Positions 54,001 to 56,780 of a stretch of DNA of 64,000 bases are shown here, piece after piece. The number at the start of each line of letters is the position of its first letter. The first letter of the stretch is position 1. Origin of the DNA: Octopus vulgaris (taxonomy: Eukaryota); assembly GCA_951406725.2 (NCBI GenBank), contig OX597816.1:172112001-172176000 (forward strand). Reading direction: 5' to 3'. The position numbers were made by a program.

Positions 54001-56780
54001 CTAATAGCAATTTAATTGATGCCTGTGATACTTTACGCCCAAAAGAAAAAGAGCACAGCCCAAGTACGAGCAGCAAAAATACATTAGAGATAGGACTAGG
54101 AATTGGTGTATTTGTTGCACTTTTAATCCTTGTTATTTTACTCTGTGTATTATACAGAAATCGTAAAAACAATAAGAAACATATATATGAAGAACCTACA
54201 ACTCCAGAAAGGACACAAGCCAATTTAACACCAAAAACTAAACGTTATACAAGAAAAAAACCAAATGAAACTAAAGTGCCAACCATTTCTGTAATATCTC
54301 ATGGTCAAGTTCAGCCAGATCAACAGCTTTCTGCAGGAAGCTACCAATATTTGGATAACCCTGGTTTTACACTAGGTGAAAAATATGAAGAAATTCAGAA
54401 CCCCCAAATTGTGCAAGATAAAGCAATAGACAATAAGGAAAATATAAGGAATGGTGGTAAGAAAAGTACTTTCCAAGATCAATCATTACCTATAAATAAT
54501 TTACCTGCACAAAGAGAATCACATTTGAATCATGCACAAAGACCTTTACCAAGTCTTCCAAAGAATGAAGATGGTAATATTTCAAGCAATAAAAATGAAA
54601 TTATTTATACCACACTTGAACTGGTAGAAAGTGATGTATAAATATGAACTTTTAAAAGTCATCGTATTTCAGTATTATTCACTGTTTTAGTCATTAAGCT
54701 GCAAGTATACTGTCCATTATTATTTGAATTTCCTGCATTGAAGGAAATATAGTTTTAAATATAATTTATTTTGCATTCCTGTTCTGTCGCTTTTAAAGGT
54801 TGTATTGTTTTTCATATATTCAATATTTTTCATATATTCAATACCAATACACTAAATCAGTTTTTACAGAGCTGATGGCAGCTAAATAGCAACCTATATG
54901 ACAGAGAATGGTGTTACTTTATTCTCATTATGGGGGTTCAACTTCTACAGTAAGGATAAATTTTGTTAGTTAAAAATGGAAGGAGACAGCCTGGTCTATT
55001 TGAATTTTTTTTCCTTTGCACATTTAAAAAAAAAAATTATATTCATTACACTGGCTAAAATATATTTGTAACTCTTTTACTGTGTGTAAGAATTTTGTTG
55101 TCACCTGATCAGAATAACTTGAAGAGACAGTCTGGCCTATTTGAGTTTTTTTTCCTTAGCACAATATATTTAAATATCATTAGTTTGTAAAAAAGTAAAT
55201 TAGATGAAACTATGCTGATGAGGTCTAATAGACTGAAACATATCCATAGTTCTTATTTGCCAACAAAATCAGGCTTTTCTCTCAGCTTGTAGAGAAATTA
55301 ATTCTTAATTTCTTGAAATTCTCTTTTCATTAAGAGTGGTCAACATTTGTTCCAAGATTTATATTTACTTCTCCAACTAATAGGGAAATTTCAATTAAAA
55401 ATATTTTTCAAATGGTATTTTATGTCATCCCCTTAACTTACTAAACTTTAATATTGTTCCTCATCAGTAGCTGGTATTCAGTTAAATACTAAATTTTATT
55501 TTCAACTGAAATTCATATTCTTTTCTTGAAATATATTTAAATATCATTGGTTTGTAAAAAAGTAAATTAGATGAAACTATTTCATAGATATCCCAAGTAA
55601 TTGATTTAAACTGTAGAATCCCTCACAAAATTGAATTTGTTCAATGCAAAAGTAACACAAACTGTTGCCACTATAAAGTGATTTTATTTTGTTCACAGGT
55701 TTATGACAATATGAACAAGTAAAGTTGTAAATCTTCCTCACAGTTGTTTGTAAATTAAGAAATAAGCTAATATCTACATCATCATCATCATCATCATTTA
55801 GCGTCCGCTTTCCATGCTAGCATGGGTTGGACGGTTCAACTGGGGTCTGTGAAGCCAGAAAGCTGCATCAGGCCCAGTCTGATCTAGCAGTGTTTCTACG
55901 GCTGGATGCCCTTCCTAACGCCAACCACTCCGTGAGTGTAGTGGGTGCTTTTTACGTGCCACCCGCACAGGTGCCAGACGGAGCTGGCAAACGGCCATGG
56001 ACGGAGCTGGCACGGACGGATGGTGCTTTTTACATGCCACTGGCATGGGGGCCGGGCGAGGCTGGCAACGGCCACGATCAGATGGTGCTTTTTACGTGCC
56101 ACCGACACGGGGGCCAGACGAGGCTGGCAACGGCCACGAACGGATGGTACTACGTGCCACTGGCACGGGGGCCAGGCGAGGCTGGCAATGGACACGAACG
56201 GATGGTGCCATAATAATTATACAAATATACACTTGATACACTAGAAATAACAGTCAAGCCTCTTTCAAATCATATCAATACATCTTTAAAAAGGACTAGG
56301 TAATGTAGTCTGCAAAATAAATTAAAATTTTAAAAAGATAAAATAAAATAAATGTGATGGTCACAGATCATAGTTCTGCTCATTCAGAGCTGAGCCGAGG
56401 TTAGATAACAATAATCTAAAATAATAAGAAAAACAGAAATCAAAAGCTAAAAACAATTATATGAGAATCAAACCAAAAAGGAAGACATGAAAAGCTGCTT
56501 AGAAATTGCTATTTAGATTGAATACAGATTCAATAACAAATAATAATAATAATCCTTTCTCGTACAAGTACAAGGCCTGTAATTTTGGGGGAGGGCACTA
56601 GTCAATTGCATCAACCTTGGTGCTCAACTTGTATTCATTCTATTGACCCTGAGAGGATGAAAGGCAAAGTTGACATTGGCAGCATTTGAACTAAGAATGT
56701 GAAGGTGGACCAAATACTGCTGAGCATTTCACCCAGCATGCTAACTATTCTCCCAGCTTGCCACCTTATTACTGATGATG

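What the first reader, a model, noticed from the sequence alone, without database searches (positions are those of the whole stretch)
54156..54641. TIR-less tail packed with signalling motifs: YEEP, YEEI, RPLPSLP, ITIM-like IIYTTL and C-terminal ESDV
Seen: HIYEEP (54180-54197), KYEEI (54381-54395), RPLPSLP (~54540-54560), IIYTTL (54600-54617) and terminal ESDV*. Known: pYEEI is the optimal Src-family SH2 ligand, RPLPxxP is a class I SH3 ligand, (I/V/L/S)xYxx(L/V) is the ITIM consensus, and ESDV is the class I PDZ ligand of GluN2A/B that binds PSD-95/Dlg. Inference: a receptor coupling an LRR-stalk-FN3-like ectodomain to Src kinase, phosphatase and MAGUK scaffolds, i.e. a candidate synaptic-adhesion (FLRT/SALM/ELFN-like logic) or inhibitory immune receptor with no ortholog I recognise.
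Basis: partly seen in the sequence, partly recalled or inferred. Interest (0 to 1): 0.75.

Follow-up and report, generated by a model that had tools for sequence, protein, structure and literature searches.

The report
Octopus LRR–FN3 receptor with docking-motif tail

Summary
All five motifs are at the stated coordinates. They lie in the last 161 residues of one 919-aa ORF (window 51882-54641, +). The protein reads: signal peptide, about 18 LRRs, LRRCT, disordered Thr/Ser stalk, FN3 domain, TM helix, disordered tail. There is no TIR domain.

The gene is not an orphan. A tail-only profile found 35 LRR proteins from cephalopods, gastropods and bivalves. Their automatic names disagree (TLR4, slit, IGFALS, LRRC4 and others) and none is characterised.

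Across 41 distinct tails:
- RPLP core: 38.
- YEEI: 2, both Octopus.
- ITIM consensus: 7.
- E[ST]x[VI] C-terminus: 12, of which 7 are among the 9 cephalopod-clade tails.

The "ITIM" tyrosine aligns with YVNV, a Grb2-type site, in related cephalopod proteins.

Best reading: an adhesion or receptor protein whose disordered tail docks SH3, SH2 and PDZ proteins. The SH3 ligand and the cephalopod PDZ ligand are supported by conservation. The Src-SH2 (YEEI) site is specific to octopods. The inhibitory-receptor reading is weak.

Expression, binding and tissue were not testable here. This is a new variant of a known kind, of moderate interest.

The parts
51860..51874 (+). Acceptor-like site (ttatctctcatacag) 7 nt upstream of the ATG. 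It suggests a 5'UTR intron with the whole coding sequence in one exon.
   Evidence: Read directly. This is an inference only, with no transcript data.
51882..54641 (+). Complete coding sequence of 919 codons plus TAA (P0001). It is the only ORF of 250 aa or more in the 64-kb window.
   Evidence: Chance of 919 stop-free codons at this base composition is 2e-29. No strong splice-donor consensus lies inside it.
51882..51962 (+). N-terminal signal-peptide-like hydrophobic segment (MKFNQLHIIWILQFQVAASA, after MEITHSK).
   Evidence: Translation. Modelled as helix 13-26. The N-terminus is shared with P0004 and P0002. No signal-peptide predictor was run.
51969..53369 (+). LRR solenoid, about 18 repeats (residues ~30-496).
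   Evidence: Pfam LRR_8 E=4.9e-43 with 7 stretches. Regular strands spaced ~24 residues apart, pLDDT mostly above 90. Best PDB sequence matches are LRRC15, IGFALS, LGR4/5, TLR13 and TLR3.
53361..53546 (+). LRRCT cysteine cap (residues ~494-555; C496, C498, C526, C542 and C549 invariant in the family).
   Evidence: Invariant columns in A3. Helix 499-513 in the model.
53550..53756 (+). Disordered Thr/Ser-rich (mucin-like) stalk, residues 557-625. It contains a 63-bp tandem repeat (53617-53751, 2.1 copies).
   Evidence: pLDDT below 50 for 557-625. Tandem repeat.
53778..54035 (+). FN3 domain (residues 633-718, seven strands).
   Evidence: Domain model with pLDDT 89. In the Foldseek PDB search, 7 of the top 10 rows are named FN3 domains, monobodies or Tencon, with TMq up to 0.67. 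The homologous region of relative P0010 passes the Pfam fn3 cut-off at 30.0 bits against 25. The window protein itself gives no Pfam fn3 hit.
54084..54155 (+). Transmembrane helix (LEIGLGIGVFVALLILVILLCVLY, residues 735-758).
   Evidence: Helix 735-762 in the model.
54156..54638 (+). Cytoplasmic tail, 161 aa, predicted disordered. This is the finding's interval.
   Evidence: pLDDT ~30 for 764-919. No Pfam family at E<=0.1 other than weak TM-region matches. No PDB sequence match to a tail profile at E<=1.
54180..54197 (+). HIYEEP (Y769), a YxxP-type tyrosine motif. It is found only in octopods.
   Evidence: HIYEEP in P0002, HTYEDP in P0005, PSRDEP in P0003. YE[ED]P is in 3 of 41 tails.
54240..54260 (+). 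Juxtamembrane basic island KRYTRKK (787-793).
   Evidence: K787 matches in 22 of 30 relatives and R788 in 29 of 30 in A3.
54285..54305 (+). ISVISHG island (802-808), conserved across the family. Its function is unknown.
   Evidence: I805 26/30, S806 27/30, G808 26/30.
54330..54353 (+). SAGSYQYL (817-824), the best-conserved tail island.
   Evidence: S820 and Q822 match in 30/30 relatives, Y821 in 29/30 and L824 in 27/30. GSYQ is in 39 of 41 distinct tails.
54381..54395 (+). KYEEI (Y835), a match to the Src-family SH2 optimum. It is specific to Octopus.
   Evidence: NYEEI in P0004, TYEAI in P0002, TYEDV in P0005, ESAEI in P0003, and no tyrosine in P0006/7/20. YEEI is in 2 of 41 tails.
54540..54560 (+). 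RPLPSLP (887-893), a class I SH3 ligand conserved across the family.
   Evidence: R887 29/30, P888 28/30, L889 29/30, P890 30/30, P893 30/30. RPLP..P is in 35 of 41 tails.
54600..54617 (+). IIYTTL (Y909). The tyrosine position is conserved in cephalopods, but its sequence context is not.
   Evidence: It aligns with IIYTTL (P0004), LNYITV (P0003), PIYVNV (P0006/7/20), NYVNV (P0005) and YYNTPL (P0002).
54627..54641 (+). C-terminal ESDV (a class I PDZ ligand) plus the TAA stop.
   Evidence: C-termini are ESDI (P0004), ETKI (P0005), ETQI/ETTI (P0006/7/16/20), GSDA (P0003) and ETTVT (P0002). E[ST]x[VI]-COOH is in 12 of 41 tails.

Best explanation
SHOWN. The interval is the disordered cytoplasmic tail of an intact type I membrane protein encoded by a single coding exon. 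The protein has a signal peptide, about 18 LRRs, LRRCT, a mucin-like stalk, an FN3 domain, a TM helix and a 161-aa tail, with no TIR domain. It belongs to an uncharacterised family with named members in cephalopods, gastropods and bivalves. The family is defined by the same ectodomain and a tail signature: KR[FY]xKK, [IV]SxG, SAGSYQxL, RPLPxxP, YxN sites and a C-terminal Yxx[ILV].

INFERRED mechanism. The ectodomain binds an extracellular or cell-surface ligand. The tail has no enzymatic domain and acts as a docking strip.
- The invariant RPLPxxP binds an SH3 domain. It is identical in core to the canonical class I c-Src SH3 ligand, so a Src-family kinase or an SH3 adaptor is the likeliest partner.
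- The bound kinase phosphorylates tail tyrosines (Y821 in GSYQYL, Y769, Y835, Y909), which then recruit SH2 proteins.
- The C-terminal E-S-D-V anchors the protein to a PDZ scaffold of the Dlg/MAGUK type at a junction or synapse.

The window gene is a derived octopod version of the family. It has lost the family's YxN (Grb2-type) sites. It has gained YEEP and YEEI. Its last tyrosine changed from a YVNV-like to a YTTL context. That change would shift its SH2 clientele away from Grb2-type adaptors.
For: Gene and fold:
- ORF and motif coordinates.
- Only LRR families in Pfam, and no TIR.
- AlphaFold model with a confident LRR solenoid, seven-strand domain at 633-718, helix at 735-762, and tail with pLDDT ~30.
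- FN3 fold.

Family:
- phmmer with residues 625-919 against 1.84 billion representatives gave 12 hits at E<=0.001, 10 of which I took as family.
- A profile of tails alone found 36 proteins at E<=0.01. Of these, 35 carry LRR Pfam domains and 9 carry fn3.
- Named members are from Octopus, Argonauta, Patella, Batillaria, Haliotis, Mercenaria, Dreissena, Mya, Ruditapes and Mytilus.

Conservation in 41 distinct tails: RPLP 38, RPLP..P 35, GSYQ 39, YxN 36 (window 0), Yxx[ILV] in the last 25 residues 38, E[ST]x[VI]-COOH 12. Per-column conservation of the islands is, and the cephalopod tail alignment is.

Nearest ortholog (P0004): 93 of 108 tail residues are identical. All tyrosines, R-P-L-P-x-x-P and E-S-D are kept, and the last residue changes V to I.

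Motif meaning, from passages read:
- VSLARRPLPPLP is used as the canonical class I c-Src SH3 docking sequence, and such a ligand lowers the Km for c-Src (PMC4509517).
- ESDV is the PDZ ligand of GluN2A/B (PMC5227094).
Against: - No binding, phosphorylation or expression evidence of any kind was reachable. The whole mechanism is inferred from motif matches in a disordered region.
- YEEI and YEEP are restricted to octopods.
- In the Argonauta protein with the most similar tail (P0003), four tyrosines are gone (RDEP, GSHQ, SAEI) and the C-terminus is GSDA. Much of the tyrosine content is therefore dispensable in at least one lineage.
- The window-to-O. bimaculoides comparison has no power. 15 substitutions fall in 108 residues, and about 3 would be expected in motif positions by chance against 1 seen (my estimate).
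- The only close ortholog model (P0004) skips the stalk, FN3 and TM, and no O. bimaculoides model of normal length with this tail was found. An isoform or a damaged ortholog cannot be excluded.
- The exact window protein is not in the 15-billion-protein collection.
- Conserved YxxL motifs could equally be AP-2 sorting signals.
- Family counts are not phylogenetically independent, and many rows are unnamed records.
Confidence: 0.55

Rival explanations
1. Inhibitory immune receptor. IIYTTL is a true ITIM that, once phosphorylated, recruits an SHP-type phosphatase to dampen signalling from a TLR-like LRR ectodomain on hemocytes.
For: IIYTTL fits [ILVS]xYxx[ILV] (the consensus is recalled). It is kept as IIYTTL in P0004 and as LNYITV in Argonauta P0003. 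The LRR region resembles TLR13 and TLR3 ectodomains, among others. NCBI's automatic name for relatives is 'toll-like receptor 4'.
Against: The consensus appears in 22% of shuffled tails. It is met in only 7 of 41 family tails, and in P0002 and P0005 it sits at other positions. The homologous tyrosine is YVNV in P0005, P0006, P0007 and P0020, which is a Grb2-type context, not an ITIM. There is a single site, with no second ITIM or ITSM. The best LRR matches are LRRC15, IGFALS and LGR4/5, ahead of the TLRs. No tissue data exist.
Confidence: 0.1
2. Trafficking tail. The conserved GSYQxL and the C-terminal Yxx[ILV] are YxxΦ sorting signals for clathrin adaptors, and the PDZ ligand controls surface retention. 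On this reading the tail governs localisation and turnover of an adhesion protein and does not signal.
For: The most conserved tyrosine sits in a YxxL context: Y821 in 29/30 relatives and L824 in 27/30. Yxx[ILV] is present in the last 25 residues of 38 of 41 tails. The tail has no catalytic domain. YxxΦ as an AP-2 signal is recalled textbook knowledge.
Against: This does not explain the near-invariant RPLPxxP, the recurrent YxN/YVN sites (36 and 32 of 41 tails), or the invariance of S820 and Q822 around Y821. The two readings are not exclusive.
Confidence: 0.2
3. The motifs are chance features of a fast-evolving, functionless tail on an LRR-only 'TLR-like' decoy or co-receptor, or the locus is an unexpressed or decaying gene copy.
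For: The tail is disordered and compositionally biased toward N, K, E, P and Q. The ITIM and loose SH3 patterns are common in shuffles. The exact protein is not in public collections. The nearest ortholog model is internally truncated. LRR-only TLR-like proteins are reported as numerous but were not analysed in the survey passages read (PMC8609888).
Against: The 919-codon ORF is intact (chance 2e-29). Tail islands are conserved across cephalopods, gastropods and bivalves. A tail-only profile retrieves proteins that all share the same ectodomain architecture. The tail is 86% identical to the O. bimaculoides ortholog, against 92% for the LRR part.
Confidence: 0.05

Closest known systems
Uncharacterised molluscan LRR–FN3 transmembrane proteins. 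Examples: O. bimaculoides A0A0L8HK46 and 'toll-like receptor 4' (P0004, P0002); Argonauta hians GAB1600118.1 (P0005); Patella caerulea KAK6182872.1; Batillaria KAK7506846.1; Haliotis rubra XP_046561960.1; and Mercenaria, Dreissena, Mya, Ruditapes and Mytilus models.
   Same: The ectodomain order is the same, and the tail shares the KR[FY]xKK, [IV]SxG, SAGSYQxL and RPLPxxP islands. The window protein is 92% identical to P0004 over residues 1-515 and 86% over the last 108.
   Different: The window tail lacks the family's YxN/YVN sites (window 0; 36 and 32 of 41 tails have them) and its terminal YxE[IV]. It has octopod-specific YEEP and YEEI and a roughly 40-residue insert before RPLP. None of these proteins has a described function, and their automatic names disagree with one another.
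Vertebrate LRR–FN3 single-pass proteins: ELFN1/2, FLRT1-3 and SALM/LRFN1-5.
   Same: The logic is the same: LRR, LRRCT, FN3, TM and a motif-bearing tail. ELFNs have a long tyrosine-rich tail and the whole coding sequence in the 3' exon (PMC2235866 passages). SALM1-3 end in a PDZ ligand that binds PSD-95 (PMC5895706 passages). Atlas structural look-alikes of a family member's FN3 region include the FLRT1/3, LRRN and LRFN clusters, at low TM of 0.31-0.34, so these are leads only.
   Different: This protein has about 18 LRRs, against 6-7 stated for ELFN and SALM in the passages read. It has no Ig domain. No tail similarity was detected. FLRTs are reported only in vertebrates (PMC10084454 passage) and ELFNs are described as mammal-specific. 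No FLRT, ELFN or LRFN chain is among the 60 best PDB sequence matches. This is an analogy, not demonstrated homology.
Toll-like receptors and the 'LRR_Tollkin' group (LRRC15, IGFALS, chaoptin-like proteins).
   Same: The long LRR solenoid has a single LRRCT next to the membrane. PDB sequence matches are LRRC15 (2.8e-34), IGFALS, LGR4/5, TLR13 and TLR3. A fly Tollkin-cluster protein with an FN3 domain (CG40500-PD) is mentioned in PMC2235866, but it was not compared here.
   Different: There is no TIR domain. An FN3 domain and a mucin stalk sit between LRRCT and the membrane. By the criterion quoted in PMC8609888, a protein without TIR is not a TLR.
Transmembrane adaptor or docking tails that carry SH3, SH2 and PDZ ligands, and the GluN2A/B C-terminus.
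   Same: The short linear motifs match: an RPLPxxP core identical to the canonical class I c-Src SH3 ligand, the YEEI Src-SH2 optimum, and an ESDV end identical to GluN2A/B.
   Different: Only 4-7-residue motifs are shared, with no homology. None of the interactions was tested here.

Membership tests
Toll-like receptor | Cytoplasmic TIR domain | tested here: not met
   No Pfam TIR hit at E<=1 for the whole protein. The tail is disordered in the model. Of the 29 ORFs of 60 aa or more that lie 3' of the gene (55.6-63.5 kb) among the 32 scanned, none has a TIR hit.
Toll-like receptor | LRR ectodomain plus a single TM helix | tested here: met
SALM/LRFN | 6-7 LRRs, then Ig, then FN3, then TM | tested here: not met
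   There are about 18 LRRs. There is no Ig hit in Pfam. The segment between LRRCT and FN3 is a disordered stalk, not a folded domain.
SALM/LRFN, NGL and LRRTM-type synaptic LRR adhesion proteins | C-terminal class I PDZ ligand that binds PSD-95/Dlg | tested here: inconclusive
   The sequence pattern is present (ESDV) and recurs in 7 of the 9 cephalopod-clade tails. Binding is not testable with these tools.
ELFN/FLRT (LRR–FN3–TM) | Architecture: LRR, LRRCT, FN3, TM, tail | tested here: met
ELFN/FLRT (LRR–FN3–TM) | Sequence orthology to vertebrate ELFN or FLRT | tested here: inconclusive
   No such protein appeared in the tail or C-terminal searches or among the 60 best PDB sequence matches. No direct comparison with ELFN or FLRT sequences was made.
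ITIM-bearing inhibitory receptor | Conserved [ILVS]xYxx[ILV] that recruits an SH2 phosphatase | tested here: inconclusive
   One site matches the consensus. It is kept in 2 relatives (P0004, P0003) and replaced by YVNV in P0005/6/7/20. The consensus is met in 7 of 41 family tails and in 22% of shuffles. Phosphatase binding is not testable here.
Molluscan LRR–FN3 family (defined here) | Tail islands KR[FY]xKK, [IV]SxG, SAGSYQxL and RPLPxxP behind an LRR–stalk–FN3–TM ectodomain | tested here: met
   All four islands are present in the window protein. The tail-only profile retrieves only proteins with this architecture, apart from one spurious hit, P0046.
Molluscan LRR–FN3 family (defined here) | YxN/YVN (Grb2-type) tyrosine sites flanking RPLP | tested here: not met
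   The window tail has 0 YxN sites, while 36 of 41 tails have at least one. The window gene is a derived member.

The most novel reading that the evidence does not exclude
Molluscs have a receptor family, undescribed in the literature I could search, that joins a Toll-like long LRR ectodomain to phosphotyrosine/SH3 signalling in place of TIR–MyD88. It would signal through a non-covalently recruited Src-type kinase bound at the invariant RPLPxxP, with SAGSYQxL as the key phospho-site. In octopods, duplicated copies keep a homogenised ectodomain but have rewired tails (YVNV to YTTL, new YEEI, PDZ end). One ligand specificity would then feed different intracellular pathways, for example neuronal scaffold anchoring against adaptor signalling.
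Probability: 0.2. Interest if true: 0.7.

Novelty: new variant of a known kind. Interest (0 to 1): 0.42.

Why it matters
LRR single-pass proteins with motif-bearing tails organise synapses and immune recognition in vertebrates and flies. The vertebrate LRR–FN3 families (FLRT, ELFN) are described as vertebrate- or mammal-specific in the passages read. A conserved family across molluscs with the same logic but its own tail signature would be an independent solution. Public annotation currently scatters it under misleading names such as TLR4, slit, IGFALS and LRRC4.

For cephalopod neurobiology or immunity it offers a concrete, testable candidate. The invariant SH3 ligand and the SAGSYQxL tyrosine are obvious sites to mutate. 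The octopod paralogs, with near-identical ectodomains and divergent tails, are a natural experiment in rewiring a receptor's output.

Without expression or binding data it remains a well-defined candidate and not a discovery.

Tried and rejected
Searches that added nothing:
- I searched for shorter or split forms of the TM-plus-tail region (residues 735-919, proteins of 30-504 aa). None of 212 candidates scored E<=0.01, so no extra octopod orthologs could be added.
- A tail profile against PDB sequences gave 0 matches at E<=1.
- Pfam on the C-terminal 295 aa gave only weak TM-region matches (MLANA, Stevor, DUF347), all below their cut-offs.

Atlas results:
- Feature look-alikes of the C-terminal part are generic FN3–TM clusters (a mollusc cluster at 0.92, then FNDC9, 'fend', Dscam). 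I treated these as leads only.

TIR and paralog checks:
- I looked for a TIR exon 3' of the gene and found none among ORFs of 60 aa or more. Shorter exons would be missed.
- I looked for a second paralog in the window by tblastn. The only other match is a 46-residue hit to the stalk, at 45718-45855.

Tree:
- The careful tree search did not finish. Only the quick tree with SH-aLRT support is available. Before building it I left out P0006, P0012, P0015, P0016, P0017, P0018, P0023, P0024, P0032 and P0046.

Hits set aside:
- P0012 and P0015 (E 6.9e-5 and 9.7e-4, short or TM-only matches) were dropped as non-family without further examination.
- P0046 (E 3.1e-3, no LRR) was dropped in the same way.

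Literature:
- Two searches for a description of this family and one for the motif string SAGSYQ (1 paper, a T-cell-receptor study) found nothing relevant.
- The TLR surveys read in passages count only TIR-bearing proteins. Their supplements were not opened.

Steps not taken:
- Complex prediction was not used, because no octopus SH3, SH2 or PDZ sequence was in hand.
- No spliced model had to be joined, because the gene is a single coding exon.
- Nothing in the window was taken for human sequence.
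Full report
**1. Observation**

Window 53900-54900 and the stop-to-stop ORF list show one long frame, 51879-54641 (+). Translated from the first ATG at 51882 it gives 919 residues (P0001).
- HIYEEP at 54180-54197.
- KYEEI at 54381-54395.
- RPLPSLP at 54540-54560.
- IIYTTL at 54600-54617.
- ESDV at 54627-54638, followed by TAA.

The interval 54156-54638 is exactly the part after a hydrophobic segment (residues 735-758). It is a 161-aa cytoplasmic tail rich in N, K, E, P and Q. 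It is the only ORF of 250 aa or more in the window. The window has no N and about 35% G+C. At that base composition the chance of 161 stop-free codons is 9e-6, and of 919 it is 2e-29.

**2. Is it more than chance?**

I ran 200,000 composition-preserving shuffles of the tail. The fraction of shuffles containing each pattern was:
- YEEI: 0.0023.
- Two YEE[IP]: 5e-6.
- RPLP..P: 0.00015.
- Loose class I SH3 pattern: 0.13.
- ITIM consensus: 0.22.
- Class I PDZ end: 0.025.
- All four loose classes together: 2.5e-5.

These numbers are post hoc, since the motifs were picked after reading. I therefore relied on conservation.

**3. The protein**

- Pfam finds only LRR families (LRR_8 E=4.9e-43) and no TIR.
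- PDB sequence matches cover only the LRR part, about residues 108-545. The top hits are LRRC15, IGFALS, LGR4/5, TLR13 and TLR3, out of 259 sequences at E<=0.001.
- An AlphaFold model built with a 31-row family alignment (A3) has mean pLDDT 71. It shows:
  - a confident LRR solenoid, about 18 repeats judged from strand spacing;
  - an LRRCT cap;
  - a disordered stalk at 557-625;
  - seven strands at 633-718;
  - a helix at 735-762;
  - pLDDT of about 30 for 764-919.
- The 633-718 domain modelled alone reaches pLDDT 89.
- In Foldseek against the PDB, 7 of the top 10 rows are named FN3 domains, monobodies or Tencon. Best E-values are about 1e-3 and TMq reaches 0.67.
- The window protein itself gives no Pfam fn3 hit. 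The homologous region of relative P0010 passes the cut-off (30.0 bits against 25), while P0009 and P0014 fall just below.
- The stalk contains a 63-bp tandem repeat.

**4. Gene structure**

- A pyrimidine-rich acceptor-like site (…ttatctctcatacag) ends 7 nt before the ATG.
- No strong donor consensus lies inside the ORF, and the first poly(A) signal is ATTAAA at 55394.
- None of the 29 ORFs of 60 aa or more 3' of the gene (55.6-63.5 kb), among 32 scanned, has a TIR or any meaningful Pfam hit.
- Full-length models of relatives (P0002 at 848 aa, P0003 at 915 aa) are collinear with the ORF through the TM and tail.
- No spliced model had to be joined.

**5. Relatives**

- A word-indexed search with residues 625-919 found three proteins among 1,145 candidates:
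  - O. bimaculoides "toll-like receptor 4" (P0002);
  - Argonauta hians "toll-like receptor 4" (P0003);
  - O. bimaculoides A0A0L8HK46 (P0004).
- P0004 is the ortholog. It is 92% identical over residues 1-515 and 86% (93 of 108) over the tail. The window is therefore from an octopodid other than O. bimaculoides, and I did not determine the species.
- The P0004 model jumps from residue ~516 to ~804 and lacks the stalk, FN3 and TM. I could not tell whether this reflects a gap, a frameshift or an isoform.
- An exhaustive phmmer search of 1.84 billion representatives gave 12 hits at E<=0.001. I took 10 as family. I set aside P0012 and P0015, which are weak and short, without further study.
- Look-up by exact sequence names Argonauta, Patella caerulea, Batillaria and Haliotis rubra. 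The rest are unnamed records, and the window's own protein is not in the collection.
- A profile of 13 tails alone (A2), searched among longer proteins, gave 36 hits at E<=0.01 out of 7,993 scored candidates. Of these, 35 carry LRR Pfam domains, 9 carry fn3, and one (P0046) is spurious.
- New named members are from Mercenaria, Dreissena, Mya, Ruditapes, Patella vulgata and Mytilus. Their automatic names are slit homolog, IGFALS, LRRN1-like, LRRC4-like, LGR5A-like and LRIG2.
- A tail-only query thus returns only proteins with the same ectodomain. This is a real family whose named members span three mollusc classes. Whether it extends beyond molluscs was not settled.

**6. Which motifs are conserved**

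In the 31-row alignment the tail has four sharp islands:
- K787-R788 (R788 matches in 29 of 30 relatives).
- I805-S806-x-G808 (26-27 of 30).
- S817-A-G-S-Y-Q-x-L824 (27-30 of 30).
- R887-P-L-P-x-x-P893 (28-30 of 30).

Over 41 distinct tails, window included:

| Pattern | Tails with it (of 41) | Note |
|---|---|---|
| RPLP | 38 | |
| RPLP..P | 35 | |
| GSYQ | 39 | |
| Yxx[ILV] in the last 25 residues | 38 | |
| YxN | 36 | window has none |
| YVN | 32 | |
| YEEI | 2 | window and P0004 |
| YE[EAD][IV] | 4 | all octopod |
| YE[ED]P | 3 | |
| ITIM consensus | 7 | |
| Class I PDZ end | 15 | |
| E[ST]x[VI]-COOH | 12 | |

These counts are not phylogenetically independent.

The cephalopod-clade tail alignment gives the site-by-site picture:
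- **HIYEEP** aligns with HIYEEP (P0002), HTYEDP (P0005) and PSRDEP (P0003).
- **KYEEI** aligns with NYEEI (P0004), TYEAI (P0002), TYEDV (P0005) and ESAEI (P0003). P0006, P0007 and P0020 have no tyrosine there.
- **IIYTTL** aligns with IIYTTL (P0004), LNYITV (P0003), PIYVNV (P0006/7/20), NYVNV (P0005) and YYNTPL (P0002).
- **C-termini** are ESDV, ESDI, GSDA, ETTVT, ETKI, ETQI and ETTI (P0007, P0016 and P0020 share ETTI). That is 7 of 9 cephalopod-clade tails with E[ST]x[VI]. The taxon of the unnamed rows is inferred only from their position next to the octopods in the quick tree.

ESDV is supported within cephalopods. YEEP and YEEI are recent octopod features. The "ITIM" is a conserved tyrosine position in a changing context. 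The best-conserved element, SAGSYQYL, was not flagged.

**7. Mechanism (inferred)**

The tail has no domain and is disordered, so it can only act through short motifs.
- The RPLPxxP core equals that of the canonical class I c-Src SH3 docking peptide. In the passages read, such a ligand placed C-terminal to a tyrosine lowers the Km for c-Src (PMC4509517).
- The same review states a strict pY+2 requirement for Grb2 SH2. The passage prints glutamine. That the residue is Asn (pYxN, as in Shc pYVNV) is my recollection.
- ESDV is the GluN2A/B PDZ ligand (PMC5227094 passages). That paper also reports it is dispensable for NMDAR supercomplex assembly in vivo, a reminder that a motif match is not a function.
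- From recall, YxxP contexts such as YEEP fit Crk/Nck/Abl-type SH2 domains better than Src.

My reading runs as follows. A ligand-binding LRR–FN3 ectodomain is coupled to a docking strip. An SH3 protein, most simply a Src-family kinase, sits on RPLPxxP. Tail tyrosines are phosphorylated and recruit SH2 proteins. A PDZ scaffold holds the C-terminus.

Relative to the family, the window gene has lost the YxN sites and gained YEEP and YEEI, so its SH2 partners probably differ from those of other members.

Alternatives are weighed in the Rival explanations section. An ITIM inhibitory receptor has weak conservation. YxxΦ sorting signals are plausible for GSYQxL and not exclusive of the main reading. 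Functionless motifs or a decaying gene are contradicted by conservation across three mollusc classes.

**8. Comparison with known families**

- **TLR.** It is not a TLR, because it has no TIR. The survey read in passages requires TIR, TM and LRR together (PMC8609888).
- **SALM/LRFN.** It is not a SALM/LRFN. It has no Ig domain and about 18 LRRs against the 6-7 stated for SALMs (PMC5895706 passages).
- **ELFN/FLRT.** It shares their architecture. With ELFNs it also shares a tyrosine-rich tail and a single coding exon (PMC2235866 passages). No sequence link was found. FLRTs are said to be vertebrate-only (PMC10084454 passage) and ELFNs mammal-specific.
- **Fly CG40500-PD.** Dolan et al. mention this Tollkin-cluster protein with an FN3 domain. 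I could not compare it.
- **Literature.** Searches for a description of this family and for SAGSYQ found nothing relevant. Supplements of the TLR surveys were not opened and might list these genes as "LRR-only".

**9. What stayed unchecked**

- Expression and splicing.
- Ortholog DNA, and hence dN/dS and synteny.
- Any binding.
- Presence of the family outside molluscs.
- The nature of the truncated O. bimaculoides model.

**10. Verdict**

This is a derived octopod member of an unnamed family of LRR–FN3 receptors found across molluscs, with a conserved SH3/tyrosine docking tail. I class it as a new variant of a known kind, with interest 0.42.

Noticed in passing
P0001/P0002 (Octopus) and P0003/P0005 (Argonauta); window 51882-53400 compared with 54156-54638: Paralogs within one species have near-identical LRR parts but very different tails. 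Identity over the first 500 residues is 0.81 and 0.86, against 0.44 and 0.29 for the tails. Tails pair across species instead: P0001-P0003 at 0.47 and P0002-P0005 at 0.46. The quick tree groups paralogs by species. This suggests gene conversion of the ectodomain after an older duplication, or tail swapping.
   Followed up: partly
P0004 (O. bimaculoides A0A0L8HK46) compared with window 53430-54290: The only close ortholog model joins residue ~516 to ~804, removing half of the LRRCT, the stalk, FN3, TM and the juxtamembrane part. No normal-length O. bimaculoides model with this tail turned up. The cause could be a gap, a frameshift, an isoform or a damaged copy, and it was not resolved.
   Followed up: partly
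window 53617-53751: A 63-bp tandem repeat (2.1 copies, 75% matches) lies inside the coding sequence and encodes the Thr/Ser-rich stalk. Stalk length differs greatly among relatives.
   Followed up: no
window 45718-45855 (+), inside ORF 45634-46056: tblastn finds a 46-residue stretch 63% identical to stalk residues 569-614 of the gene, about 6 kb upstream (E=1.7e-11). Pfam finds nothing meaningful there. It could be a stalk-like fragment or a low-complexity match.
   Followed up: partly
window 2716-3273 (-): ORF with a Pfam Transposase_1 (mariner-type, partial DDE) match, E=7.3e-10. It is a transposon remnant.
   Followed up: partly
window 5785-6276 (-), 39961-40464 (+), 46210-46668 (-): Three ORFs share a similar translated stretch (…YQIHSQG.GRP.AIAEDTCPRCH.VGLNPE..GWLASYLPHSHSCA…) next to TA/TG-rich microsatellites. 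They have no Pfam match. This is probably an interspersed repeat family.
   Followed up: no
window 56011-56208 and 56781-56911: There is a G+C-rich tandem repeat with a 58-62-bp unit (about 3 copies) and a long (ATA)n run about 1.4-2.3 kb 3' of the gene. ORF 56883-57533 (+) beside them has no Pfam hit.
   Followed up: no
family tails (P0008-P0045): Outside the octopods the tails carry two recurrent YxN sites, HYxN before RPLP and GYVNxGF after it. They also have a terminal LPETSxNxY[SN]E[VI] block. The mytilid-like clade (P0043-45) and P0009/P0017 end in ETRI, ETQI, ETEI or ETHI.
   Followed up: partly
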